NCBI GenBank assembly: GCA_035510735.1
Contig: DATKGN010000002.1
Location: 125,118 to 189,117 of the forward strand
Length of the DNA stretch: 64,000 bases
Direction of reading: 5' to 3'
Origin: Patescibacteria group bacterium
Lineage (GTDB): Bacteria > Patescibacteriota > Microgenomatia > UBA10105 > UBA927
In this document: one piece after another, positions 22,440 to 34,438 of the stretch
How positions within the stretch are numbered: the stretch's first letter is position 1
Layout of the letters: every line of letters starts with the position of its first letter
Notes under the pieces: model-generated
Databases searched by the model: none
The model's input: the letters and a program-made list of their open reading frames with translations, nothing else
What the model was told of the DNA's origin: nothing
Position numbers and translations under genes: made by a program

Positions 22440-22900
22440 CAACGACATTGAGATCCGGGCTTCAGTTTCACTCGTGAAATATGGTTTTACCTTCCATCAA
22501 GATTCTTCTCACTCGCAAAGTGAATCCGGACTCAATGCTGTTGGCTCCCTCGCGGTTAGTCCAACTAGATTACGAAATAGTCTCAAGCGTTGGCGGATGT
22601 CCTCGATCCTGAGATCAAGGATCTAAGGGCGCAAAAATTGTGCGTGCTCGCCGCGTTTATTAATCTCTTAGCTGGTATTAAAAGAAACCGTCACCAGAAT
22701 CCTCACGACTGCCACCGCTCTTAAATATAAAAGGGTTCATTGGCATTTCTCGAGCATCGCAACCCCGAGCCAACTGACTCTCAGCAAACCCGATGAGCGT
22801 ACATTTTACGTAAATGCAGGGGAAATAACAGAACTCCGGCGATGCGAGGAAATGACAAAAGAACCCGGGTTACGACATATAAAACTTCCGCTTGGGTTCC
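22440..22900 (+). ncRNA. rnpB: RNase P RNA (bacterial type A-like)
   Basis: 500-bp ORF-free region. AAAGTGAATCCGGACTCAATG matches the P4 5' strand GGAAAGUCCGGGCUCCAUAG. CTAAGGGCGCAAAAATTGTGCG matches AAGGGUGAAAGGGUGCG. AAATATAAAAGGGTTCATTGG matches AAAUAGGGGUUCAUAAGG. GAGGAAATGACAAAAGAACCCGGGTTACG matches GAUGAAUGAC..ACAGAACCCGGCUUA (the P4 3' strand). The exact ends (P1) are not resolved. Confidence 0.7.
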
Positions 22901-23562
22901 GGAAACTTTTCGATCGCGTACCGGAGCATCGTCCGTGGCATGGTTTTGTAATGTTTGTTGAGGAATGCAATTTCAGCCGCCTCATCCATCTTCCCCAATT
23001 CCCGTAGCATCCACCCGACGGCTTTGTGAATAAGATCATGGTCGTCATGAAGGAGAATTTCAGAGATGGCGAAGGTCTCATTAAATTGTTTTTGGCGAAG
23101 AAGTGCGTAACACGCAACCATCGAAATCCTTCGTTCCCACAGGCTTTTTGATTTGGCGAGCCGAAGGAGTAGCGTTCGCTCTTTGGGATGGTCAAGGAGA
23201 TACGTTCCTACAATTTCGTGAGAGGATAAATCGACAAGATCCCAGTTATTAATGTATTTGGTATTGGCGAGGTACAGGTCAACAATCTTTTTCCGTTCTT
23301 CATCCCCCGCTTTCTCAATTTTATAGCAAAGGATGAGAAGGGCCGTCAGGCGGTATTCGTGAAGCTTGTTATGAAGGAGCATCTCAACTTCGGTAAGCGG
23401 CAGATTTGTATATTTCTTTGCAACCGCCCGCTGGTCGGGTACCGTGATCCCCAAAAACACGTCACCTTCGCCGTACTGTCCCTTCCCGGTTTTGAAGAAC
23501 CGGAGGAGGAACACCGCTTTTTCCTTGTTTGCAAGCTTATTTAAATCCTGGGTAACACTCAT
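22870..23562 (-). CDS. DNA alkylation repair protein (AlkD/AlkC-like HEAT-repeat glycosylase)
   Basis: HEAT-like repeats, YINNWDLVDLSSHEIVG motif; start trimmed to M24 (MSVTQDL) to remove overlap with the upstream gene. Confidence 0.65.
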   Translation of the reverse strand: MSVTQDLNKLANKEKAVFLLRFFKTGKGQYGEGDVFLGITVPDQRAVAKKYTNLPLTEVEMLLHNKLHEYRLTALLILCYKIEKAGDEERKKIVDLYLANTKYINNWDLVDLSSHEIVGTYLLDHPKERTLLLRLAKSKSLWERRISMVACYALLRQKQFNETFAISEILLHDDHDLIHKAVGWMLRELGKMDEAAEIAFLNKHYKTMPRTMLRYAIEKFPEPKRKFYMS

Positions 23563-23987: not shown

Positions 23988-24851
23988 TCAAGAAGTCAAA
24001 GTGGTAAGGATTTCCTCCGCGTGGGAAACGGAAATAAAATGTCCTTCCCCTGGATAAACCGTCAGCACGCTTCCCGCGATATGTGAATGGTAATACTTCC
24101 CCATGTTAAGTGATACGTTCCGGTCGTCCTCTCCGTAAAACAAAAATGCTTTTGCATGGATTGCACCGACGTCAAATCCCCAATCGGTACAATAGAGCTT
24201 AAGATCGAGCTCGGGTCCTCTGATCCCCTGCCGGAATGCCTCGCGGTAGTTTGCGAGAACCGATTCCGAAAGCTTCGGGTTCCTATACAGTTTGCGGTCT
24301 TCTTTCGCCCCGAAAAAATACTTGTGAAGCCCCAAATGGATTCCGTAATACGCATTTATATACTGAATCAACGTTGAAATTCTGCGGACAACGGGATATT
24401 TCCTATAATTCGCCCAGCCGATTTTACTCATCCACATCATGCCGTCAAGCGATTCAGGGCCGATAATGGGCGCAAGTCCGACAACAATCCCGGCTTTTGT
24501 AATCCGCTCCGGGATTTTATACGCACACACCGCAGCGTACGGCCCGCCGCCGGATTGACCCATGACGGCAAACGTCTTGATCTTCAGATGATCAGTAAGA
24601 GCGGTGACGTCGCCCGGCCAATCGAGAAGCGTCCGGTCTTTTTGGTAATCAGAATATCCGAATCCGGGCCGGTCAGGAGAAATGATGCGGATATGGAGTT
24701 TTTTGGCGAGTGCATCGTTTTTTGCCGCAAATAACCGTGACGAAGGCCAACCATGGAAAAAGAATACCGGTTTCCCTTTGAGATCGCCGTACTCGTTATA
24801 TGCGAGGTACCGCCCGTCTTTCAGCCTGCAAAGTTCAAACGCATCGTTCAT
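23988..24851 (-). CDS. alpha/beta hydrolase
   Basis: HGWPSS oxyanion motif, GQSGGG nucleophile elbow; start trimmed to MNDAFEL. Confidence 0.75.
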   Translation of the reverse strand: MNDAFELCRLKDGRYLAYNEYGDLKGKPVFFFHGWPSSRLFAAKNDALAKKLHIRIISPDRPGFGYSDYQKDRTLLDWPGDVTALTDHLKIKTFAVMGQSGGGPYAAVCAYKIPERITKAGIVVGLAPIIGPESLDGMMWMSKIGWANYRKYPVVRRISTLIQYINAYYGIHLGLHKYFFGAKEDRKLYRNPKLSESVLANYREAFRQGIRGPELDLKLYCTDWGFDVGAIHAKAFLFYGEDDRNVSLNMGKYYHSHIAGSVLTVYPGEGHFISVSHAEEILTTLTS

Positions 24852-24852
24852 A

Positions 24853-25200
24853 TTACTTTTTCTTTTTGGCCCGCAGTGCCGCTTCATATGCTGCAATCGC
24901 CCAAGGATAAATCGCCTCTGGGTTGTCGGCAACAATCCCAGGCACTTCCCAAAACGACAGCGCTACCGTTTTCCCCGTGTGGCCGGTATACATAAAGGGT
25001 TTACTCCCTTCTGCTTCGTAATCCTTCTGACTTACCGAATCGACCTTAAAGTACAACATGCCAGAGTGGATTAAGCCGATGCAAACTCCATGCCGGTAAA
25101 TCCCGTGTCCGCCGAACAGTGTCCGAACACTGATCCCGTCAACCTCACGCAGTAATTCATCCTCGACATATTCCTTAAAACTGTCATCTTTATGTGCCAT
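24853..25200 (-). CDS. TfoX N-terminal domain protein
   Basis: 115 aa, TLFGGHGIYRHGVCIGL motif typical of TfoX_N; no C-terminal TfoX domain. Confidence 0.55.
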   Translation of the reverse strand: MAHKDDSFKEYVEDELLREVDGISVRTLFGGHGIYRHGVCIGLIHSGMLYFKVDSVSQKDYEAEGSKPFMYTGHTGKTVALSFWEVPGIVADNPEAIYPWAIAAYEAALRAKKKK

Positions 25201-26064
25201 AGGTGCATTGTATCAAAGCCAAAGACTCCGGCAAGTTATATTTACTATAAGATTGATTATTACCTTATAGTAAGGTATACTTACTTTATGTTTTACGCAG
25301 AAAGAGTCGACAAACACAGCCCGCGTTATGCCATTGAATCATTTTATGATAGTGCGAAGTTGTATCTGCCTTCCGGTCTGACACCATATAAAGAAAAATA
25401 TGATTCAAATAATCAAATAGCGTTTAATTCCCCCAATGGCGATTTGGTAACCGTATATTTGGAAAAAACCCAGGGGTTAGACCAAAGACATGGCACATAT
25501 GCATATGTAGTGGCGAGAAGGAACAAACAGGATAGTGGGTTTGTTTGGATGGCATTAAAATTTCATCAACGACAACATGAACCGTTTTTCCAATCTATTC
25601 TGAACCAAGACCATTATAATAAACAATTAGGATATACCGTCTTTTCCCTTAATCGGAACAGTCATAAGGGAGAGGTAAATATGGGTATAGATTTCAACAG
25701 AAGTCCTAATCGTAATCCAAGTCTTACAAAACCTGCTCACGCAAAGCTCTATATATTTGATCTCTGGAAATATCATCGGGCAAAGTTGATAGTTACCGCA
25801 GATTCCCGTGATGAAAACTACTCCGAGTTGTTATTTGGACCTGATTCAGGCGGCTTATATGATGAAAATGGCGGTGATCTTCAGTTACCGGACACAATTC
25901 CCCAGCTCACACGGTTTCGCATATCAACTGATATGCCGCTCATAAAGGCAGCGTTTAATGAGCACATCGGCAACAAAGGAGAACCAATAAATCCATTTGT
26001 CTCTTTTCCCCAGGCGTACACAAAGATTGAGCGGTACGCGCTTAACTCTCTGAAGGCGGAATAG
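25192..26064 (+). CDS. hypothetical protein
   Basis: ORF; the real start is possibly at MFYAERVD; its 3' end overlaps the convergent ORF by 23 nt. Confidence 0.4.
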   Translation: MCHRCIVSKPKTPASYIYYKIDYYLIVRYTYFMFYAERVDKHSPRYAIESFYDSAKLYLPSGLTPYKEKYDSNNQIAFNSPNGDLVTVYLEKTQGLDQRHGTYAYVVARRNKQDSGFVWMALKFHQRQHEPFFQSILNQDHYNKQLGYTVFSLNRNSHKGEVNMGIDFNRSPNRNPSLTKPAHAKLYIFDLWKYHRAKLIVTADSRDENYSELLFGPDSGGLYDENGGDLQLPDTIPQLTRFRISTDMPLIKAAFNEHIGNKGEPINPFVSFPQAYTKIERYALNSLKAE

Positions 26065-26692
26065 CCTCTTCTTCCTTATCTTTCCTATCGTAATTAATGA
26101 AGGGAGGGTTGTAGTCAGGCATCACGGTTCTCATATTTTTAGTAAATGCGATTAAGCTGTTTTGTGACGGGCAGATGCGTTTGAGGTCGTCTGCTTTAAG
26201 CACCGCGAGCTCCGGAACCGTGTGCAGTTTCTCATCAATCATCCGATTATAGAGATAACGCCCGGGTTTAATAGTTTCCAGAGCTCTGTCGCCAAAATAC
26301 CATCTGCGCCACACGCGGACCAAAACCCAATATAACTCCTGCCGGAAGTCGCCGATCTTCGGGTCTCCGCTCGTCTGGGCTTTGATCTCTGACTCCGTCA
26401 GAAACCGTTTGTACTTCCCCTCTCCCTGCCGGTCGATAGACAAGGTTAAGATTAATACATCATGCGGGGAAAGCACCTGATCAACGGTAAATTGACCGCT
26501 CGCCTGAATTTCCGTAATGTTGTAGCGGAGCTGGTCCCGAAACGGGTGGGTAAACCGCCTATCCTTCAGTTCGTTCTTCTGTAATACGTCGTGGTCAACA
26601 TGTTCCGGCATCCACGATTTCCTGACAACCTCACGGACCTCAACGCCTGCAAACTCAGGTAACATCTGTGGATTCCCCTCCGGCAAAGTCAT
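26042..26692 (-). CDS. hypothetical protein (216 aa)
   Basis: ORF, no motif. Confidence 0.45.
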   Translation of the reverse strand: MTLPEGNPQMLPEFAGVEVREVVRKSWMPEHVDHDVLQKNELKDRRFTHPFRDQLRYNITEIQASGQFTVDQVLSPHDVLILTLSIDRQGEGKYKRFLTESEIKAQTSGDPKIGDFRQELYWVLVRVWRRWYFGDRALETIKPGRYLYNRMIDEKLHTVPELAVLKADDLKRICPSQNSLIAFTKNMRTVMPDYNPPFINYDRKDKEEEAIPPSES

Positions 26693-26813
26693 AGGAAGCT
26701 ATTGTAGTATATATACCCTCTTAATCTAAAATAGATTAACACCCGCCCGCAATTCCGATTGCGAGGGGTAGATCACGTATATACTTGATGTGTCACACCC
26801 GGTAATTTATTTA

Positions 26814-27503
26814 TTATCCTGTCACCTCTGTAACACCAAATATTTCAACACCGTCGTAACTAGTTTGAACTTGCAATATTCGGGTGCCAACCTTAATAAC
26901 AATTATCCTGGGGCCGGGTTCTTGAGATATTGAAATAATTTTGGCAGTTTCTAGCCATCCTAATTCCCGTAATTTCTCAATAACTAAAGAGTAATAATTT
27001 TCTCTTTGTGATTGATAAGTCTCCTTCTTCCGAATATCTTCAAGCCAAATAAATATAATAAACGTAGTCGATGTTAGCATTGCCCCATAACTTAACCATT
27101 GGCAAAAAATTGCGAAGTTCATGATATTAGGTTGAATAATATTTTTTGAGGAAATAATAAATATAAAAACTAAAAGTGAAGCGAAAAACAACTTTATCAA
27201 ATTTTTTAAAAATCCATAAGCAATCTTTTCAGGAGCTACGTATGGCGCCGGCTGAGTCGGATTACTATTCGTCCGTATCATAAAGAAGTTAGATTTCCAG
27301 TACGAGTAAATTGCGATTGTAATTATTGAAAAAAATAAAACGATGATATTTACTAAATTTAAATTTTCATGGTTTAGGAGCAGTGAGTTGAGCTTTAATC
27401 TGTCTGAAAAATCCACTGCGAAAAATGCAAAAACCTGTACCAAAGCGGGTGTTAAAGATATTATCGTATTAAAAATATTATTTGCAAAATCCTTGTGTTT
27501 CAT
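26814..27503 (-). CDS. hypothetical membrane protein in an AT-rich segment
   Basis: 4 TM helices plus a C-terminal soluble ~60 aa; the local sequence is visibly much more AT-rich than its flanks. Confidence 0.5.
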   Translation of the reverse strand: MKHKDFANNIFNTIISLTPALVQVFAFFAVDFSDRLKLNSLLLNHENLNLVNIIVLFFSIITIAIYSYWKSNFFMIRTNSNPTQPAPYVAPEKIAYGFLKNLIKLFFASLLVFIFIISSKNIIQPNIMNFAIFCQWLSYGAMLTSTTFIIFIWLEDIRKKETYQSQRENYYSLVIEKLRELGWLETAKIISISQEPGPRIIVIKVGTRILQVQTSYDGVEIFGVTEVTG

Positions 27504-27516
27504 AAGTTGATATCTA

Positions 27517-28032
27517 CTATTTCCACTGAAATATCGCGCCGAGGAGCGTCATCATCGGTGAAACGTTCCACCACTGGAACGACGGCGTGGTTGCAGGCTG
27601 TGGCGGCATGTACGTTGGCGTTGCGGTAACCGTTACCATTGCAGTCGGTGTCGCTGTCGGCGTAGTTATTTCGGTCGGCGCTGGGGTAAGCGTTACCGTC
27701 CCCACCTTCGCTGAAGCTTCGGTGGGTAAAGGCGTTGGCGTATAGGTTGCAATCGGCGCGTAGGCCGCAGGCGGTAGGATATATCGGGTGGGTGGAACGG
27801 TGACAACCGGCGCCTGTGTAGTAACGGTATTATTCGTGCTTCCGCCGCACATGACCATGGAAGCATACGAGCAGGATGAACCGGTCCAGCCGTCATTGCA
27901 GATCACATTGCCATTCCCCTGCGGCCCCACACCACAATTGACGCCGCTATGACCCGAACAACAGCCACTGGTTGCAAAAACAATTGAAGGAAAAAGTAAG
28001 AAAAGTGCGGGCAGGAGGAATATTTTTTTCAT
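27517..28032 (-). CDS. secreted Cys-rich protein with a Thr/Pro-rich linker
   Basis: Signal peptide MKKIFLLPALFLLFPSIVFA, then 10 Cys in ~45 aa (CCSGHSGVNCG...), a TP-rich low-complexity region and a short hydrophobic C-terminus. Confidence 0.6.
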   Translation of the reverse strand: MKKIFLLPALFLLFPSIVFATSGCCSGHSGVNCGVGPQGNGNVICNDGWTGSSCSYASMVMCGGSTNNTVTTQAPVVTVPPTRYILPPAAYAPIATYTPTPLPTEASAKVGTVTLTPAPTEITTPTATPTAMVTVTATPTYMPPQPATTPSFQWWNVSPMMTLLGAIFQWK

Positions 28033-28160
28033 ATGCCTCCCTGATCATCGGCATACTACCACAAACCGTCGGGTTTACCAATACGAAGTTACCGAAACGG
28101 AATCTGTGGCATGCAGGCCATTTTGTACTTACCCGATGTTCCTTGGTATAATGAGCGTTC

Positions 28161-28715
28161 ATGAATCCTATTGTTCCGCCTATTGCCAAATTCTTAACCG
28201 CAGGCACGATTCTTGCCGATATCGCAATCGTCGCCTACGTTATCGGGTGGCTTGTGGGATTGGCTATCAAGCCCATTACTGCGCTCCGCAATAAGGCAAT
28301 TGAGATGATCGCGCCATACGCCCGCATCCTCGGATTTCTTCTCGCTCTCTCAGCTATGGCAGGTAGCCTGTTTTACTCGGAGATCGCCAAGTATCCGCCG
28401 TGCTTCCTCTGCTGGTGGCAGCGGATTTTCATGTATCCGCAGGTGCTTCTTATCGCCATGGGGATAATGAAGGATGACAAGAAAGTTGCTGATTACACGA
28501 TCGCCATGTCTATTATCGGTTTTGTCATTTCCGTCTACCAATATTACATCCAGATGGGCGGAGGCCAGCTTTTCCAATGCGATCTCAATGGCGGCGTCTC
28601 CTGCACCCAGCATTTCCCCTTGGAATTCGGCTACGTGACGCTGCCCATGATGGGCCTGACGGCTTTTGCGGGGCTCATTATCCTTATGTGGATTTCAAAA
28701 AAGCACGCGAAGTAA
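28161..28715 (+). CDS. disulfide bond formation protein B (DsbB/BdbC family)
   Basis: 4 TM helices, CFLCWWQRIFMYP first Cys pair and a second Cys pair CDLNGGVSC in the second periplasmic loop. Confidence 0.7.
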   Translation: MNPIVPPIAKFLTAGTILADIAIVAYVIGWLVGLAIKPITALRNKAIEMIAPYARILGFLLALSAMAGSLFYSEIAKYPPCFLCWWQRIFMYPQVLLIAMGIMKDDKKVADYTIAMSIIGFVISVYQYYIQMGGGQLFQCDLNGGVSCTQHFPLEFGYVTLPMMGLTAFAGLIILMWISKKHAK

Positions 28716-28716
28716 G

Positions 28717-29862
28717 TTATTTCTTCTTTGATCTCACCATTTGTACCATCCCGCCTAAACCCCAGATGACAGCGAGAAATCCGACGATCCCGCCGACAAA
28801 CGGCGCCTTAAACATGAACCAGAGGACGGGCACCCCGACGGCAATCTGAAGGAATGTGTTATCTTTCGTTTTCGCTTTGAAACTATCGAGTATATACCAC
28901 CCGACCCAGAGGGCGACAAACAGGCGGCTTATGGCAATCGCGATAATGTAAAGTAAAACAAGAAGTAACGCAAACGGGATTCCAATAATGGTCACAGCGA
29001 GAATGACGGCAACCACGGGAACGACCATAAGATACACAAACCCCTTCAGCGCTACGGCTATAGGATCTTCCTTCATGACGGTGAATATCTTCTGCGTGAC
29101 TGCCGGCATAAACTTGAGCATAAGAAGACCTACAACGAGAAAAAATAAAATAGACGGAATTGCATTGGCCGGCCAGGGATTGGGAGCGGGCTTTGCGGCA
29201 GCCTGCTGTTTATTCTGCTTCGCAGTAGGCTCATTGGTGACCATCCCGAGAATGGATGCGCTCTTCGGTACAACCACTTTCGTATCGCTCACATAGTGAA
29301 GATTTCCGTACACTTTTGCGGAATCTCCCAAAATAAGTGAACTGGTCTCTACATCAACATTTCCGTGAACTTTCCCGTTAATACCGATCGTTTCCCCGTA
29401 CCCGCCGAGCGATTTTCCGATAATGCCGTTCTGTGTCAGTGTCTGTGCGGCAACAAATAACTCACCCGATACAGAGCTTGCTTGCGATTGGGTAAGCGTT
29501 TGTCCGAATGCGGTAACATTCCGTTTTACCGGTCCTTCGATAGTGATCGTTTGACCGGCGAGTCGTAGATTTCCGTCAACAACTCCACTCACCCGAAGCA
29601 TTTGAGCTGCACAGATGACATCGCCCTCAACAGTCCCTGATATGGTCACATCGTTTCCTGCACAATAGACGTCACCGTGTACGACTCCGTCCACTTTCAC
29701 CGATTTGGCACCAATAAAAAGAGATCCATCAATGACCTGATCTCGGCTTACGTCTACCATCTCCCCGCTTTCGACTTCAAATGCGTGCGCCGCTGGAACC
29801 ACGCGGAATGCGGCAAATAAAATGGTTATGGCAAGTATAAACCGAACAAACTTCATATTCAT
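28717..29862 (-). CDS. signal-peptide protein with a bactofilin-like beta-helix repeat domain and a C-terminal 4-TM domain
   Basis: Repeats of G-x-V-x-G-D/N-V (VDGVVHGDVYCAGNDVTISGTVEGDVICAA...) after the signal peptide; multi-TM C-terminus; 12-nt gap to the upstream ATPase gene. Confidence 0.55.
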   Translation of the reverse strand: MNMKFVRFILAITILFAAFRVVPAAHAFEVESGEMVDVSRDQVIDGSLFIGAKSVKVDGVVHGDVYCAGNDVTISGTVEGDVICAAQMLRVSGVVDGNLRLAGQTITIEGPVKRNVTAFGQTLTQSQASSVSGELFVAAQTLTQNGIIGKSLGGYGETIGINGKVHGNVDVETSSLILGDSAKVYGNLHYVSDTKVVVPKSASILGMVTNEPTAKQNKQQAAAKPAPNPWPANAIPSILFFLVVGLLMLKFMPAVTQKIFTVMKEDPIAVALKGFVYLMVVPVVAVILAVTIIGIPFALLLVLLYIIAIAISRLFVALWVGWYILDSFKAKTKDNTFLQIAVGVPVLWFMFKAPFVGGIVGFLAVIWGLGGMVQMVRSKKK

Positions 29863-29874
29863 ACTATATCATAA

Positions 29875-31665
29875 TTATCGGCTGGCACGAAGCGCATTAA
29901 ATATGACGCTCACATCAATAGCTTCCTGGATAAATGCACCCAAAAGCGGTGGAATCATGCCGAGCGCCGCCAAAATCATCCCGATGATGCTTAAGCCGAT
30001 ACCGACCCAAATACTCTGAAGCGCAATTGCGATTGTCCGCCGTGCAATCGTGAGCGATTCAAGGACGACCGAAAAGCTTCCGCCCAAAAACACGAGGTCA
30101 GCCGCCTCGGAGGCCGCCGTTTGCTCCTCATTACTGAAAACCATTCCGACGTCGGCGGACGCTAGAGCGGGCGCATCGTTAATCCCGTCCCCGACCATAG
30201 CCGTCACCCGTCCAAGCTGACGCAAATGCTTAATACCGTTCATCTTATCCTGAGGTGTGCATTCCGTTTTTATATCGATATCTAATCCGAGCGATTTGAC
30301 AACCTCCTGGGCTGTTTCTTTTTTGTCCCCGGTAAATATGGATAAATGAAGTCCCCAGGCATGAAGTTGTGAGAGAATTTTACGCGACTCCGGCTTAATC
30401 CGGTCCTCAAACTGGATAACGGCGATACGCCTCCGGCCCTCCCGGAGTTCAATACCGTATCCAACTGATTCTTTCACCTTTGAAAGGACATAGTGATGGT
30501 TGTCGATGGTGCCGAGTATTCCGTAGCCTATTTTTTCAGACACGCCGCGCGCGACCAAATGCTTCACCGTGCGGCTCCTTGCTTCCATAACGATAGCTTT
30601 TGCAAACGGATGTAAACTATTGCGTTCTATGGCTTCGCTCATTGCCAGTATCTGATTCTCCGTATACTTCTTATTCTTGATGATGACCCCGGATACCTGC
30701 GGTTTACCCAGCGTAATCGTCCCCGTCTTATCAAACATAATATCGGTTACCCGCGAAAGCGTCTCGATACTTGAAAGGGTTTTGACAATCACTTTACGCC
30801 GCGCGAGCGCATTCATGCCGCCGATAAGAGCAATCGGCGTTGCAAGAATAAGCGGACACGGGGTGGCGATGACGAGAACAGCAAGGACATGGTGGATATT
30901 ACCTGAAACGAGATAGGCCGCTCCGGCAAGCAAAAGGGTAACTAGGGTAAAAATACTGCTGTAGCGGTCGGCAATGCGGACAAGCGGCGATTGTGCTTCT
31001 TGCGCCTGACGCACCATATCAATAATTTTCCGGTACGTGGAATCTTTATCAGACTGGGTAACGCGGACAATCATAGGCCGCCTGATATTGATCGTGCCGC
31101 TACGAATCTGATCACCAAGAAGTTTCTCCATTTCGTAGGGTTCTCCTGTTAGCGATGATTCATCCGCCATGCCGTCCTCACTGACGAGAATGCCATCAAG
31201 CGGAATGACCTCACCTTTCCGGACGAAAATCTGCTCCCCTACCGCAACCTCGCTGATTTTTACCTTTTTTCCGATGTCATTATCCTTCCAAAGCAAAACA
31301 CTATCGGGAATCCGGCTGGTGAGAGCCGTCAGTGATTTTTTGGCCCGGGAAACCGCATATTTCTCAAGCGCCTCTCCGCCCGCAAGCATGAGGACGATAA
31401 CGGCAGCAACTAAAAATTCACCGGAAATAAGACCGGTCGTGATCGCAAGAAGAGCGATGTAATCAAGAGCAAACTGCCTATGTATGAGTGCAACGATAGC
31501 GTCACGCACCTGATCGATGCACCCGAAGAGGATAGCGACAACAATAACCGCATCGGCGAAAAACCAGTTATGAAACCCATACAGAAGAATAAGATACGCA
31601 ATAATACCCAGTACTTCAATTGCGGGCAATAAAAACAGGGTAATAAATTGTCTATACCGTTTCAT
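29875..31665 (-). CDS. P1B-type (PCP-motif, P1B-5-like) metal-translocating P-type ATPase
   Basis: DKTGTIT, TGDKKETA, GDGINDAPAL; TM6 ATPCPLILATP (a PCP rather than CPC motif); no N-terminal metal-binding domain; start moved to MKRYRQ (the 130-codon upstream extension looks non-coding). Confidence 0.8.
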   Translation of the reverse strand: MKRYRQFITLFLLPAIEVLGIIAYLILLYGFHNWFFADAVIVVAILFGCIDQVRDAIVALIHRQFALDYIALLAITTGLISGEFLVAAVIVLMLAGGEALEKYAVSRAKKSLTALTSRIPDSVLLWKDNDIGKKVKISEVAVGEQIFVRKGEVIPLDGILVSEDGMADESSLTGEPYEMEKLLGDQIRSGTINIRRPMIVRVTQSDKDSTYRKIIDMVRQAQEAQSPLVRIADRYSSIFTLVTLLLAGAAYLVSGNIHHVLAVLVIATPCPLILATPIALIGGMNALARRKVIVKTLSSIETLSRVTDIMFDKTGTITLGKPQVSGVIIKNKKYTENQILAMSEAIERNSLHPFAKAIVMEARSRTVKHLVARGVSEKIGYGILGTIDNHHYVLSKVKESVGYGIELREGRRRIAVIQFEDRIKPESRKILSQLHAWGLHLSIFTGDKKETAQEVVKSLGLDIDIKTECTPQDKMNGIKHLRQLGRVTAMVGDGINDAPALASADVGMVFSNEEQTAASEAADLVFLGGSFSVVLESLTIARRTIAIALQSIWVGIGLSIIGMILAALGMIPPLLGAFIQEAIDVSVIFNALRASR

Positions 31666-31774
31666 AGAAATCTTCCCTAGTATAGAATTGACGCCGCGCG
31701 TTGTCCATACACACCAGGAGCGCACCCGCACCGAATTGACAAGACTTTGATCTCGTGGAACAATACAAGTACAT

Positions 31775-32173
31775 ATGTTTCGAAATAAGAATGTATGGCT
31801 TTTGGGAAGCGTAGGACTTATTGTTATTGCGATCGGACTCGTTGCGATTCTTGATAGAACGAGCTCCCCGGGTAATTCTCCAAATGATGTACGAGCCAGG
31901 GCCGCCACCGCAAATACGCTCCAGTTCAACGGTACAGTGAGCGTTGTCAATGAAACCAAAGGAACAGTCGTTATTTCCGATTTATATTTTGCAAGCGTCA
32001 GCCGTTCGGGCGATGCGACGAATCTGGGGACATGGACCGTGACGGCGCCGCCCAATTTTGATTACACAACAATTTCGCAGGGAGCAAATGTTGTGGTAGG
32101 CATTGACGCAAAAACATTTCTTGCAACATCGCATACGTTGACGGCAATTACGCTTGTCCCCGGTACAAGATAA
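31775..32173 (+). CDS. hypothetical N-terminally anchored protein (132 aa)
   Basis: Single N-terminal TM helix then a Thr/Val-rich beta-like domain; divergent from the ATPase. Confidence 0.4.
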   Translation: MFRNKNVWLLGSVGLIVIAIGLVAILDRTSSPGNSPNDVRARAATANTLQFNGTVSVVNETKGTVVISDLYFASVSRSGDATNLGTWTVTAPPNFDYTTISQGANVVVGIDAKTFLATSHTLTAITLVPGTR

Positions 32174-32179
32174 TCTTCA

Positions 32180-34438
32180 TTATCCGAACGGAAAGTTATC
32201 CCCAGATTGAACAACCTTTTCGCGGCCGTTCCGTATAAGATGAACCATCCCAACGCCTAATACTTGAGACTCGTGCCGGGTCACATCGACGACGCATGCT
32301 GTTTGTTCATCAATCCCCAGTATCGTCATCCCGCCGGGCAACAGACTAACAAGCTTCTCAAACCGGCTGACCCCCATATAGCAGCGCGTCGTATCAAAGT
32401 CCTCCCCCTCCTGATTATTCCAGTGCGGGATAATGACCACGTTGGGAATCCATTGTTTAAACAGATTTATTCCCGCTATCCAATGCAGCTCCTCCCCTAC
32501 TTTAAATATTTCATAGACGGGAAGGACCTGCGCGCCCACGGCCATCGCGGTAGCTGACCCCAGACAGACGGTCATTCCGGTTTGAAACGCTTTTTCAATA
32601 TTGTGAGCCGCGCGCGAACCCTTGAGGTGCTTTACCGTATAACCGGGAGAACCGGCCCCGCAGTAGAGATAGTCTTCATGGAGAATTGAATCCACAGTTG
32701 CAGGATCATTTGTAGAATTTTGGCCGTCACAACGCCATGCACGAATTCTCGTAATCTCAGGCTTTATATTGATGAGTTTCGTCTTGAAAAATTGCTCCAT
32801 CCGCTCGGGCCACCCGTGAATCGCATTCACTTCAAAGCCTGTCGGTGTTTCAAGGATGCCGATCTTCACTCCGGCCGTTAATCCAGCCTGCTTTATTACC
32901 GTCTCATGAATTTTTCTTCCGGTCGGAGACATCTCGCCGGAGCCAAATAGGACAATTAGACCTGGTTCCCCGCGACGGAGTTTATCCTGAGCATTGCCGA
33001 AGGACTCGGGGTGAAAAATTGATTTGTTTGTCAATTTTTCATTTTTTTTTACGCGGATTCCTTGTGGAGTATCTTCAATGACGTACCCTTTGTCTTCAAT
33101 TTCGCGGCGGACGGCATCGGCATCGGCAAACCGTTTTTCCTTGCGAAGTGCTTCGCGCTTTGCCAATAAATCAGAAATTTCCTTTGGCACCGCAACTTCT
33201 TCGCTTTTGGCACTGGCAAGATCAAGTCCTAATACGCCATCGAATGATATGAGCAAATCATACCGCTCTTTTGGACTTAAGGATTGTGCCCGTATAACCT
33301 CCCAAACCACTGCAAGAGCTCTGGGAATATTTAAATTATCTTCGAGTGTTTCTTTGAATTTTTGTACGAATTCCTGCCGCAGCGGCGTCTGGTCTTTTGA
33401 TGCAAAAGATTCGCTTCTTAAGGCTGCGACAGCACTAATCAGTTCGTGTCGTGCGTTTTTGGACGCATCAAGCGCTGTCCAGGTGAAGTTGAGAAATGCC
33501 CGGTAATGTGCAGTCAGATAGAGATACCTAAGGTCTAACGGATCGTAACCCTTAGATTCAATATCTGCTAACCGGTAAAAATTCCCTTTGCTTTTGGCCA
33601 TCTTGGCGCCGTCAACCATGATGAATTGCCCGTGCACCCAATACCGCACAAACGGAGATTTGCCGGAAGCGGCTTCCGACTGGGCAATCTCATTGGTATT
33701 ATGAATGGGAATAAGATCAGCGCCGCCGGTGTGGATGTCGATCTGATCGCCTAAATGCTTTTTACTCATCGCGGAACATTCGATATGCCAGCCGGGAAAT
33801 CCCACACCCCACGGGCTCTCCCACTCCATATCCCGTTTCGGTCCTTTCGGGGAAAATTTCCAAAGGGCGAAATCGGTCGGATTCTTCTTCTGCGGATTTG
33901 GTTCTACGCGTGCGCCTTCCTTAAGTTCATCAAGGCTTTGACCCGTTAATTTTCCGTAGTCTTTAAATTTACTGGTGTCGAAATAGATCCCGTCATCAAT
34001 CTTGTAGGCGAATCCTTTAGAAAGGAGCATTTCTACCATAGCGATTTGCTCGGCAATGTGTTCGGTCGGCTTCGGCCGGACATCCGGGTCCAGGAGATTC
34101 AACTTCTTACTGTCCGCCAAAAACGCATCGGTGTAAAATCTCGCGATGTCCCACGCGGTTTTCCCCTCACGTTTGGCGCCCTTTTCCATCTTATCTTCAC
34201 CGCTATCGGAATCGGAAACAAGGTGGCCGACATCGGTAATATTGGAAACGTATTTAACCGGATACCCCAGGTATTTAATCGTCCGTACCAGAAGATCCGA
34301 CATTGTATACGTCCGGAAGTTGCCGATATGCGCATAGTCATACACCGTCGGGCCGCAGCAATAGACCGTTACCAATTTCGGATCTCTTGGAGTAAATGTT
34401 TCAACTTTTTTCCCTAATGTATTGAAGAGTCTGAGCAT
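32180..34438 (-). CDS. cysS: cysteinyl-tRNA synthetase fused to a ~290-aa C-terminal domain (peptidase S51/GATase1-like?)
   Basis: VYCCGPTVYDYAHIGN (HIGH), KMAKSKGN (KMSKS), Cys ligands; the CysRS core ends at about aa 465; the extension has GSGE and CLGSATAMA motifs. Confidence 0.85.
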   Translation of the reverse strand: MLRLFNTLGKKVETFTPRDPKLVTVYCCGPTVYDYAHIGNFRTYTMSDLLVRTIKYLGYPVKYVSNITDVGHLVSDSDSGEDKMEKGAKREGKTAWDIARFYTDAFLADSKKLNLLDPDVRPKPTEHIAEQIAMVEMLLSKGFAYKIDDGIYFDTSKFKDYGKLTGQSLDELKEGARVEPNPQKKNPTDFALWKFSPKGPKRDMEWESPWGVGFPGWHIECSAMSKKHLGDQIDIHTGGADLIPIHNTNEIAQSEAASGKSPFVRYWVHGQFIMVDGAKMAKSKGNFYRLADIESKGYDPLDLRYLYLTAHYRAFLNFTWTALDASKNARHELISAVAALRSESFASKDQTPLRQEFVQKFKETLEDNLNIPRALAVVWEVIRAQSLSPKERYDLLISFDGVLGLDLASAKSEEVAVPKEISDLLAKREALRKEKRFADADAVRREIEDKGYVIEDTPQGIRVKKNEKLTNKSIFHPESFGNAQDKLRRGEPGLIVLFGSGEMSPTGRKIHETVIKQAGLTAGVKIGILETPTGFEVNAIHGWPERMEQFFKTKLINIKPEITRIRAWRCDGQNSTNDPATVDSILHEDYLYCGAGSPGYTVKHLKGSRAAHNIEKAFQTGMTVCLGSATAMAVGAQVLPVYEIFKVGEELHWIAGINLFKQWIPNVVIIPHWNNQEGEDFDTTRCYMGVSRFEKLVSLLPGGMTILGIDEQTACVVDVTRHESQVLGVGMVHLIRNGREKVVQSGDNFPFG

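What the first reader, a model, noticed from the sequence alone, without database searches (positions are those of the whole stretch)
27517..28715. Secreted 10-Cys protein with a TP-rich stalk adjacent to a dedicated DsbB-like oxidase
The signal-peptide protein packs 10 cysteines into about 45 residues (CCSGHSGVNCGVGPQGNGNVICNDGWTGSSCSYASMVMCGG). These are followed by a Thr/Pro-rich linker and a short hydrophobic tail. It is divergently adjacent to a BdbC/DsbB-type membrane oxidoreductase (CFLCWWQR). The pairing suggests a disulfide-knotted surface or secreted effector with its own oxidative-folding partner: an adhesin-like, pilin-like or bacteriocin-like molecule in a genome that otherwise encodes little periplasmic machinery.
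Basis: partly seen in the sequence, partly recalled or inferred. Interest (0 to 1): 0.5.

Follow-up and report, generated by a model that had tools for sequence, protein, structure and literature searches.

The report
Stalked surface protein, Dis2-like cysteine knot
A small exported protein of a Patescibacteria (CPR) bacterium carries a six-cysteine head related to Dis2, a Legionella secretion-machine protein so far called Legionella-specific; the DsbB gene next to it is a housekeeping gene, not a dedicated partner.

Summary
Both genes are real. The Cys-rich ORF (27517..28032, minus strand, 171 aa) has a signal peptide, a Cys head, an 85-residue Thr/Pro stalk and a short Trp-flanked hydrophobic tail. 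The head has 6 cysteines, not 10. The neighbour (28161..28715, plus strand) is a genuine DsbB/BdbC-type oxidase.

The head belongs to a large family with no model in the libraries searched: 1037 cluster representatives, mostly CPR, a few phages. Its profile matches both lobes of Legionella Dis2/Lpg0823 (PDB 7MUC; E 2e-8; hhalign 91%). Published cryo-EM places all ten Dis2 cysteines in disulfides. Positions 24 and 54 are both Cys or both non-Cys in 182 of 184 relatives, which supports a C24-C54 disulfide.

The "dedicated oxidase" idea fails. None of 30 other loci encoding the domain has a DsbB within 6-8 kb or less. DsbB sits in a conserved backbone (abhydrolase, DsbB, bactofilin-like protein, P-type ATPase, CysRS). 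The Cys gene lies in a variable 3.2-kb insert where relatives carry signal peptidase I.

Best reading: a surface-displayed, disulfide-stabilised binding head that probably depends on the cell's general DsbB. Its ligand is unknown. Moderate-to-low interest; the Dis2 link is the useful result.

The parts
27517..28032 (-). Whole gene for the 171-aa exported protein with a Cys head, Thr/Pro stalk and hydrophobic tail
   Evidence: ORF. A 100%-identical protein, P0001, is annotated as hypothetical in a Patescibacteria MAG, and 46 homologues were found. GGGAGG ribosome-binding site upstream.
27970..28032 (-). Signal peptide, residues 1-21 (MKKIFLLPALFLLFPSIVFA|T). Cleavage by signal peptidase I after VFA is inferred.
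   Evidence: Kyte-Doolittle hydrophobic segment over residues 1-27. 175 of 184 relatives have a hydrophobic segment directly before the domain. The small-x-Ala pattern is conserved in the alignment. No SignalP run was available.
27841..27969 (-). Dis2-like six-Cys head, residues 22-64 (TSGCCSGHSGVNCGVGPQGNGNVICNDGWTGSSCSYASMVMCG)
   Evidence: Invariant C25, C33, C45, C62, H28 and D47. 1037 representatives at E<=1e-3. Hit to PDB 7muc_AN (Dis2) at E 2e-8. hhalign 91%, E 1.1e-6. C24/C54 concordant in 182 of 184. Domain-only AF2 model with pLDDT 81.8.
27583..27840 (-). Thr/Pro/Ala-rich stalk, residues 65-150
   Evidence: Composition (measured on residues 67-150). Variable-length P/T-rich linkers occur in homologues. 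In 50 of 184 relatives, P+T+S make up at least 40% of the sequence after the head.
27517..27582 (-). C-terminal tail, residues 151-171 plus stop (PSFQWWNVSPMMTLLGAIFQWK*). It is a short Trp-flanked hydrophobic segment and a possible membrane anchor.
   Evidence: Conserved in 9 close homologues and in loci L001, L002, L006, L008 and L013. AF2 places a helix at 159-167. It does not reach a 19-residue transmembrane threshold.
28161..28715 (+). DsbB/BdbC-type membrane thiol oxidase (184 aa). It is a housekeeping neighbour and a probable but non-dedicated oxidant for the head.
   Evidence: Pfam DsbB 48.2 bits and NCBIfam PRK03113 112.9 bits. Cys 81, 84, 140 and 148. 204 homologues, many named DsbB in CPR phyla. 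Backbone synteny.
24853..28032 (.). Variable insert between the conserved abhydrolase and DsbB genes. It holds a TfoX_N gene, three ORFs with no family match (one at 32% GC) and the Cys-head gene.
   Evidence: tblastn synteny with L034, L035 and L036. Gene-by-gene GC. Relatives carry signal peptidase I in this slot.

Best explanation
The gene encodes a Sec-exported cell-surface display protein.

Shown:
- It has a hydrophobic signal-like N-terminus, a 43-residue Cys head, an 85-residue Thr/Pro stalk and a short hydrophobic Trp-flanked C-terminal tail.
- The head is one member of a large family. At the profile level the family is homologous to each lobe of Legionella Dis2 (Lpg0823), a small protein of the Dot/Icm outer-membrane cap.
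- Positions 24 and 54 covary across the family.
- The neighbouring DsbB is a conserved housekeeping gene. It lies beside the Cys gene only because that gene sits in a variable insertion slot.

Inferred:
- Signal peptidase I cleaves after VFA21.
- The head is locked by three disulfides. C24-C54 follows from covariation. C25-C45 and C33-C62 follow from elimination, because Dis2 lobe 2 lacks the equivalents of both C33 and C62.
- Those disulfides are made by the cell's general extracytoplasmic oxidation system, with DsbB as the membrane oxidase and an unidentified DsbA/BdbD-like carrier.
- The stalk holds the head away from the membrane, and the tail tethers the protein.
- The head is a binding module for a protein or glycan on the cell's own envelope or on a host or partner cell. 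This rests on the recurring head-linker-anchor layout, where the anchor is a transmembrane segment, SLH, PG_binding_1 or SH3_3. It also rests on the invariant H28, N46, D47, W49 and Y56, and on Dis2's purely contact-making role. The ligand is unknown.

The confidence of 0.65 applies to the structural and genomic reading: an exported, disulfide-stabilised Dis2-like head on a stalk, next to a housekeeping DsbB. The binding or adhesion function on its own is about 0.35.
For: - ORFs and anatomy.
- Family conservation.
- Family size and position: 1037 representatives, with the domain starting at about residues 10-60 in the 150 listed. 175 of 184 have a signal-like segment just before it.
- Fusion partners: SLH in 6 of 64, PG_binding_1 in 2, SH3_3 in 2, EGF-like repeats. 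C-terminal transmembrane segment plus basic tail in 39 of 184.
- Dis2 homology: hmmsearch against PDB gives E 2e-8, with both lobes aligned. hhalign gives 91%, E 1.1e-6. phrog_6000 matches Dis2, the short viral forms and, weakly, a CPR member. A Dis2-family HMM hits only domain carriers among 1247 locus ORFs. Short viral forms look intermediate.
- Disulfides: Dis2's two lobes hold five disulfides with strong density (PMC8486379). C24/C54 are concordant in 182 of 184, with about 6-7 coupled switches on an NJ tree. Dis2 lobe 2 lacks the C33 and C62 equivalents together.
- DsbB is housekeeping.
Against: - The window protein alone scores only 15.9 bits against the Dis2-family HMM.
- The full-length AF2 model was poor in the head.
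- The tail is too short to be a classical transmembrane helix.
- No DsbA/BdbD-like partner lies in the 64-kb window.
- Nothing here tests the binding function, and Dis2 itself is dispensable with unknown function (PMC12716638).
- L006, the only other locus with a DsbB nearby, carries a protein with the same stalk and tail. Weak lineage-specific linkage therefore cannot be fully excluded.
Confidence: 0.65

Rival explanations
1. One reading: the Cys-rich protein and the adjacent DsbB are a dedicated substrate-oxidase pair, kept together because this DsbB exists to fold this protein.
For: The two genes are divergent and 128 bp apart. L006, from a related genome, has a protein with the same stalk and tail (YHYH head, 4 Cys) 1.1 kb from a DsbB.
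Against: - None of 30 other loci encoding the domain has a DsbB within the flanks fetched, up to 6-8 kb.
- No thiol-oxidoreductase family is enriched among 144 neighbouring genes.
- DsbB keeps its backbone neighbours (signal peptidase I, bactofilin/DUF8173, P-type ATPase, CysRS) in relatives that have no Cys gene nearby.
- DsbB of this type is widespread in CPR.
Confidence: 0.06
2. The invariant four Cys plus His28 and Asp47 form a metal site (Zn or Cu) rather than disulfides. The protein would be an extracellular metal-binding or chaperone domain, perhaps linked to the nearby P1B-type ATPase.
For: C25, C33, C45, C62, H28 and D47 are invariant. A heavy-metal-type P-ATPase (TPCP motif) lies 1.8 kb away, and an ATPase lies within 8 kb in 4 loci. 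A YHYH domain replaces the head in P0047 and has been predicted to bind Zn (PMC7824862).
Against: - In Dis2 all ten Cys are modelled as disulfides with strong density, and the text read mentions no metal.
- Dis2 lobe 1 replaces the His with Met and the Asp with Asn.
- The C24/C54 pair behaves as a disulfide pair.
- The ATPase linkage is backbone synteny among close relatives, not family-wide.
Confidence: 0.1
3. It is a freely secreted bacteriocin-like or toxin peptide, or a pilin-like subunit.
For: It is small, Cys-rich and exported, and it lies in a variable, foreign-looking region.
Against: - It has a Sec-type signal, not a double-glycine leader or a class III pilin signal (sequence).
- There is a long stalk, and relatives carry C-terminal anchors such as a transmembrane segment with a basic tail, SLH or PG-binding domains.
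- No immunity, ABC-exporter or pilus genes recur nearby.
Confidence: 0.03
4. It is a lipoprotein, with Cys24 (or Cys25) as the lipidated residue of a lipobox (ATSG|C).
For: The window sequence A-T-S-G-C fits a permissive lipobox pattern (sequence).
Against: - About half the family have Lys or Arg at position -3 (AKSGC, ARSGC), which is incompatible with a lipobox.
- Dis2 has D-G-C-C and is modelled from residue 40 with these Cys in disulfides.
- C24 is replaced by Ala in 74 of 184 members.
Confidence: 0.03

Closest known systems
[quoted passage not shown]
   Same: It has a signal peptide followed directly by the GCCxxHGGV...VCNDG...C motif. Both Dis2 lobes align to the window's head. It is a small, disulfide-pinned extracytoplasmic module, and no enzymatic role has been described for it.
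   Different: - Dis2 is two tandem lobes with no stalk or anchor. It sits in a Gram-negative periplasm inside a T4SS, contacting DotK, DotC and DotD (PMC12716638).
- The window protein has one lobe with a different sixth-Cys position, a Thr/Pro stalk and a tail, and it comes from a CPR bacterium.
- No T4SS gene family appears in the neighbour census of related loci.
- The papers describe Dis2 as Legionella-specific (PMC12716638).
phrog_6000 (PHROGs v4, unknown function) and Pfam PF27300 (recorded on some Dis2 homologues)
   Same: phrog_6000 matches Dis2, the short viral and proteobacterial forms, and weakly the CPR member P0039. PF27300 is recorded for several Dis2 homologues.
   Different: The window protein itself does not reach E<=0.01 against phrog_6000. 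PF27300 is not in the local Pfam copy, so membership could not be tested. It is not recorded on any of the 47 close homologues, but that record is patchy: only 5 of the 120 listed Dis2 homologues carry it.
BdbC/DsbB membrane thiol oxidases (Bacillus subtilis BdbC; E. coli DsbB)
   Same: The neighbour gene has the DsbB fold signature, a CxxC in the first loop, a second Cys pair, and the Arg after CxxC.
   Different: It is about 45 residues longer at the N-terminus, with an extra hydrophobic helix that CPR homologues share. It scores below the NCBIfam cut-off for the BdbC subfamily (112.9 against 124). No BdbD/DsbA partner lies in the window.
Hevein/knottin-type small disulfide-rich binding domains (Pfam Chitin_bind_1)
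   Same: It is of similar size, Gly-rich, with a CCS motif and conserved aromatic and polar residues. This resemblance is from memory and is a lead only.
   Different: There is no Pfam match at E<=0.1, and the Cys spacing differs. It is not a member.
YHYH domain proteins (NCBIfam NF033223)
   Same: In P0047 a YHYH head occupies the same position on the same stalk and tail.
   Different: The sequence motif is unrelated (HPGNTDGNGCHTC...YHRH). The domain has been predicted to be a Zn hydrolase (PMC7824862). The window protein has no YHYH motif.

Membership tests
Dis2-like Cys domain (Lpg0823 lobes / phrog_6000) | Significant sequence-profile match to the Dis2 lobes | tested here: met
   A family profile against PDB gives E 2e-8 with both lobes aligned. 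hhalign gives 91%, E 1.1e-6. The reciprocal Dis2 HMM hits only domain carriers among 1247 ORFs, but the window protein alone scores only 15.9 bits.
Dis2-like Cys domain (Lpg0823 lobes / phrog_6000) | Shared motif G-C-C-x-x-H-G-G-V ... V-C-N-D-G ... C directly after a signal peptide | tested here: met
   Alignments. The window has SGCCSGHSGV...VICNDG...SSC.
Dis2-like Cys domain (Lpg0823 lobes / phrog_6000) | All cysteines engaged in disulfide bonds | not testable with these tools
   This is shown for Dis2 only, by cryo-EM (PMC8486379). Here there is only covariation of C24 and C54.
Dis2-like Cys domain (Lpg0823 lobes / phrog_6000) | Structural superposition on the Dis2 lobe | tested here: inconclusive
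Dis2 orthologue (T4SS outer-membrane cap component) | Two tandem lobes, and membership of a Dot/Icm-type T4SS | tested here: not met
   The window protein has a single lobe with a stalk and tail. No T4SS family appears in the families listed for neighbours of related loci or among the window genes scanned. The organism is a Patescibacteria MAG.
DsbB/BdbC thiol oxidase (neighbour gene) | Pfam DsbB above the gathering score; CxxC in loop 1 and a Cys pair in loop 2 | tested here: met
   48.2 bits against a cut-off of 22.1. C81xxC84 and C140/C148.
DsbB/BdbC thiol oxidase (neighbour gene) | Quinone-coupled reoxidation and a DsbA/BdbD partner | not testable with these tools
   No thioredoxin-fold CxxC ORF was found in the window. 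The whole genome was not available.
Dedicated oxidase-substrate gene pair | Conserved co-localisation of the two genes across relatives | tested here: not met
   DsbB was found only in the window and L006, among the window and 33 fetched loci. The neighbour census shows no thiol oxidoreductase.
Sortase (LPXTG) substrates | LPXTG-type motif before a C-terminal transmembrane segment and basic tail | tested here: not met
   There is no LPXTG in the window protein or the aligned homologues. The only signal is a sub-threshold TIGR01167 hit on P0041 (14.0 bits against 15.9).
Hevein / chitin-binding type 1 | Pfam Chitin_bind_1 match and its 8-Cys spacing | tested here: not met
   No hit at E<=0.1 or E<=10.

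The most novel reading that the evidence does not exclude
The Dis2-like knot may be a widespread extracytoplasmic ligand-binding head. Episymbiotic CPR and DPANN cells, and some of their phages, would display it on stalks to attach to partner or host envelopes. In Gottesmanbacteria-like genomes it would be one of several interchangeable heads (Dis2-like, YHYH) on a common cassette of signal peptide, Thr/Pro stalk and WWNxSP tail. On this reading, Legionella's 'species-specific' Dis2 is a recruited, duplicated copy of this module.
Probability: 0.15. Interest if true: 0.55.

Novelty: new variant of a known kind. Interest (0 to 1): 0.33.

Why it matters
The Legionella papers read here call Dis2 Legionella-specific and report no structural relatives, so its function could not be inferred. 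This work places its lobes in a family of more than 1000 protein clusters. The family is concentrated in ultra-small CPR bacteria and is nearly always an N-terminal head on a linker and an envelope anchor. That gives both fields something to test. Dis2 provides a structural template and disulfide evidence for an uncharacterised CPR surface protein. The CPR architectures suggest that Dis2-type lobes are generic envelope-binding modules. It also removes a tempting but wrong inference: gene adjacency to DsbB here reflects an insertion hot spot, not a dedicated folding system.

Tried and rejected
- Full-length AF2 model: the head had pLDDT of about 45-50 and was unusable.
- Pfam and NCBIfam on the Cys protein gave only sub-threshold EGF/DSL-like noise. 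PF27300 is absent from the local Pfam copy.
- tblastn of a short-form member against annotated phage and plasmid collections found one 'hypothetical protein' in each.
- Literature searches for YHYH and for Patescibacteria plus DsbB gave only one relevant passage, on YHYH.
- Metagenome scan for the WWNxSP tail: the first pattern was mistyped by one N. The corrected pattern found nothing in JGI contigs, although it matches 5 loci already fetched.
- All-against-all clustering of flanking ORFs found no conserved partner, only local synteny among close relatives.
- The lipoprotein, LPXTG-substrate, pilin, bacteriocin and hevein readings were considered and rejected (see rivals and membership tests).

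Full report
**1. Observation**

The window holds an ATG ORF at 27517..28032 on the minus strand (171 aa) and a divergent ORF at 28161..28715 on the plus strand (184 aa), separated by 128 bp.

The 171-aa protein has four parts:
- a hydrophobic N-terminus, MKKIFLLPALFLLFPSIVFA;
- the segment TSGCCSGHSGVNCGVGPQGNGNVICNDGWTGSSCSYASMVMCGG;
- an 85-residue stalk, counted on residues 67-150 as 24 Thr, 18 Pro and 12 Ala;
- the tail FQWWNVSPMMTLLGAIFQWK.

Six Cys in 39 residues is still far from chance. Cys makes up 0.82% of 65 non-overlapping window ORFs, giving P of about 8e-7, and this is the densest Cys cluster in the window. A GGGAGG ribosome-binding site lies 4 nt upstream of the ATG.

The gene is real. 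An identical protein is annotated as hypothetical in a Patescibacteria MAG, and 46 homologues share a nearly invariant head.

The neighbour is a true DsbB. Pfam DsbB scores 48.2 bits against a cut-off of 22.1, and NCBIfam PRK03113 (BdbC-type) scores 112.9 bits. It has C81-F-L-C84 followed by the Arg of CxxCxxxR, and a second Cys pair at 140 and 148.

**2. What the head is**

No model in the local Pfam or NCBIfam copy covers it.

A profile of 32 head sequences, scored against 1.84 billion cluster representatives, finds 1037 proteins at E<=1e-3 and 353 at E<=1e-10. In the 150 listed, the match starts at about residues 10-60. In 175 of 184 collected members a hydrophobic signal-like segment lies directly before it.

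Genome hits are mainly CPR: Gottesmanbacteria, Shapirobacteria, Parcubacteria, Peribacteria and Dojkabacteria. There is also a Woesearchaeota bin, a Bacilli bin and a few others. Seven viral contigs carry it. One homologue sits antisense inside a phage tail module.

What follows the head varies:
- a P/T-rich linker plus a transmembrane segment and basic tail (39 of 184 by a strict threshold);
- SLH domains (6 of 64 longer members), PG_binding_1 (2), SH3_3 (2), or EGF-like Cys repeats.

The recurring layout is head, then linker, then envelope anchor.

**3. Link to a solved structure**

The same profile, searched against all PDB sequences, hits one protein at E 2e-8. It is chain AN of 7MUC/7MUD and related entries, deposited as 'neurogenic locus notch protein homolog'. 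Both halves align: residues 37-68 (AADGCCSKMGGINYCDSSAGRLVCNNGFYSTC) and 83-114 (GCCLWHGGVYPQLNSSGLVVCNDGYVSEECSL).

This chain is Dis2 (Lpg0823) of the Legionella pneumophila Dot/Icm T4SS outer-membrane cap. [quoted passage not shown] A later paper calls Dis2 Legionella-specific and shows it is dispensable for T4SS assembly and effector translocation. It contacts DotK, DotC and DotD (PMC12716638).

Four further results corroborate the homology:
- hhalign of a 72-sequence head alignment against a 48-sequence Dis2 alignment gives 91% probability, E 1.1e-6.
- phrog_6000 (unknown function) matches Dis2 (2.1e-5), short viral forms (1.6e-8 and 2.7e-6) and, weakly, the CPR member P0039 (7.7e-3).
- A Dis2-family HMM run against 1247 ORFs from all fetched loci hits only carriers of the domain. 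The window protein alone scores just 15.9 bits.
- Short viral forms such as SGCCSYHGGVSHCDTSTGRQVCNDGSYSPSCTC look intermediate between Dis2 lobe 1 and the CPR form.

I put profile-level homology at about 0.85.

**4. Disulfides**

Across 184 family members, positions 24 and 54 are Cys/Cys in 108, both non-Cys in 74 (mostly Ala/Val) and mixed in only 2. On a neighbour-joining tree built with those two columns masked, Fitch parsimony gives 7 and 6 changes for the two positions and 7 for the joint state. The switches therefore coincide and happened several times. The tree rests on about 45 columns and is rough. This is the pattern expected of a C24-C54 disulfide.

C25, C33, C45 and C62, with H28 and D47, are invariant. 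Dis2 lobe 2 lacks the equivalents of both C33 and C62. Lobe 1 has the C33 equivalent plus a Cys two residues after the C54 equivalent. Counting 3 + 2 gives the five published disulfides. I therefore infer C25-C45 and C33-C62 by elimination; this was not verified on coordinates.

A metal site formed by Cys, His and Asp remains a minority alternative.

**5. The DsbB pairing**

Four lines of evidence bear on it:
- phmmer with the window DsbB found a DsbB only in L006 among the 26 loci held at that point. A profile of 120 CPR DsbBs, run on all 33 loci held later plus the window, found it only in L006 and the window. None of the 30 other loci that encode the domain has one within the fetched flanks, which reach 6-8 kb where the contig allows.
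- L006 does not encode the Cys head. It encodes P0047, which has the same stalk and tail but a YHYH head (NF033223, 29.5 bits against a cut-off of 30).
- A Pfam census of 144 genes within 2.2 kb of the domain gene in 28 loci shows no family in more than three loci and no thiol oxidoreductase among the 25 families listed. All-against-all clustering likewise found only local synteny among close relatives.
- The DsbB has 204 homologues of about 180 aa in many CPR phyla, already named DsbB by NCBI and JGI. Its own neighbourhood is conserved: L035 reads signal peptidase I, DsbB, bactofilin/DUF8173, P-type ATPase; L036 reads MtN3, DNA_alkylation, hypothetical, abhydrolase, signal peptidase I, DsbB..., CysRS.

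tblastn maps this backbone onto the window:

| Backbone gene | Window coordinates |
|---|---|
| DNA_alkylation | 22873-23556 |
| abhydrolase | 23991-24851 |
| DsbB | 28161 onwards |
| bactofilin-like | 28720-29868 |
| P-type ATPase | 29878-31665 |
| CysRS | 33044-34243 |

The 3.2 kb between abhydrolase and DsbB (24853..28032) is lineage-specific. It holds a TfoX_N gene, three ORFs with no family match and the Cys gene, with GC ranging from 32% to 55% against a window mean of 46.5%. Relatives carry signal peptidase I in that slot.

The adjacency is therefore best explained as insertion next to a housekeeping gene. DsbB remains the plausible oxidant for the head, but it is not a dedicated one. 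No DsbA/BdbD-like ORF was found in the window.

**6. Mechanism proposed**

Shown: the domain anatomy, family membership, the profile-level Dis2 link, the Cys covariation, and the non-conservation of the DsbB adjacency.

Inferred:
- Sec export and signal peptidase I cleavage after VFA21. The small-x-Ala pattern is conserved. A lipobox is excluded family-wide by Lys or Arg at -3 and by Ala replacing C24.
- Three disulfides introduced by the general DsbB-dependent pathway.
- A stalk of roughly 25 nm if fully extended.
- Tethering by the short Trp-flanked tail, which is weaker than in the relatives that carry clear transmembrane anchors.
- A binding role for the head.

The binding role rests on three things: the head-linker-anchor layout, the invariant polar and aromatic residues (H28, N46, D47, W49, Y56), and Dis2's purely contact-making role. 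The ligand is unknown.

**7. Novelty and score**

Neither gene is extraordinary. DsbB is already annotated. The Cys protein is one member of a large family with no assigned function.

The unanticipated result is that Dis2, treated as Legionella-specific in the papers read here, has lobes belonging to this widespread, mostly CPR family. A secondary observation is that the same stalk and tail carry different heads.

I rate interest at 0.33 and novelty as a new variant of a known kind.

Noticed in passing
window 26814..27503 (-): A 229-aa multi-pass membrane ORF at 32% GC (window mean 46.5%), only 13 bp downstream of the Cys gene. It has no Pfam, NCBIfam or PHROG match. It looks like foreign cargo, possibly co-transcribed with the Cys gene.
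   Followed up: partly
window 24853..28032; L035 3-293; L036 2489-3985: This is a variable slot between the conserved abhydrolase and DsbB genes. Relatives carry a 498-aa signal peptidase I (S26) with a long C-terminal extension directly upstream of DsbB. tblastn finds no match to it anywhere in the 64-kb window.
   Followed up: partly
window 27517..27582; L001 6469-6528; L006 2311-2370; L008 8412-8471; L013 8370-8429: The C-terminal tail F(H/Q)WW(N/D)xSPxxxxxGxxFxWK-stop is shared by proteins with a Dis2-like head and by one with a YHYH head (P0047). That amounts to a head swap on a common stalk and tail. The tail was found only in a few Gottesmanbacteria-like genomes and may be a lineage-specific anchor or sorting signal.
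   Followed up: partly
window 28161..28715 (+): This DsbB and its CPR homologues are about 180 aa, with an extra N-terminal hydrophobic helix (residues ~7-42) ahead of the Pfam DsbB match (55-175). From general knowledge, not tested here, CPR genomes usually lack quinone synthesis, so the electron acceptor of this DsbB is an open question.
   Followed up: no
window 29875..32055 (-) and 31775..32173 (+): The P-type ATPase ORF (TPCP motif, heavy-metal type) probably starts near 31665 rather than at the TTG at 32055; the homologue is 597 aa. A conserved 132-aa gene lies on the opposite strand at 31775..32173.
   Followed up: partly
window 32180..34438 (-): Cysteinyl-tRNA synthetase is fused to a ~270-aa C-terminal domain (weak Peptidase_S51 match). 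In relative L036 the equivalent is a separate gene that overlaps CysRS by 4 bp.
   Followed up: partly
L003 5075-6531: A family member (P0039) and an upstream 313-aa membrane protein lie antisense inside a phage tail-gene cluster (Dit, tube, HK97-gp10-like genes), arranged like a moron.
   Followed up: no
L024 7386-7979 and 8082-8525: A Desulfobacterales contig has two adjacent family members. One is a lipoprotein-like ORF with the short-form domain at its C-terminus, so the domain is not always N-terminal.
   Followed up: no
window 28717..29862 (-): A bactofilin-repeat protein with a signal-like N-terminus and a multi-pass C-terminal membrane domain (DUF8173 in relatives) is conserved immediately downstream of DsbB, in convergent orientation.
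   Followed up: no
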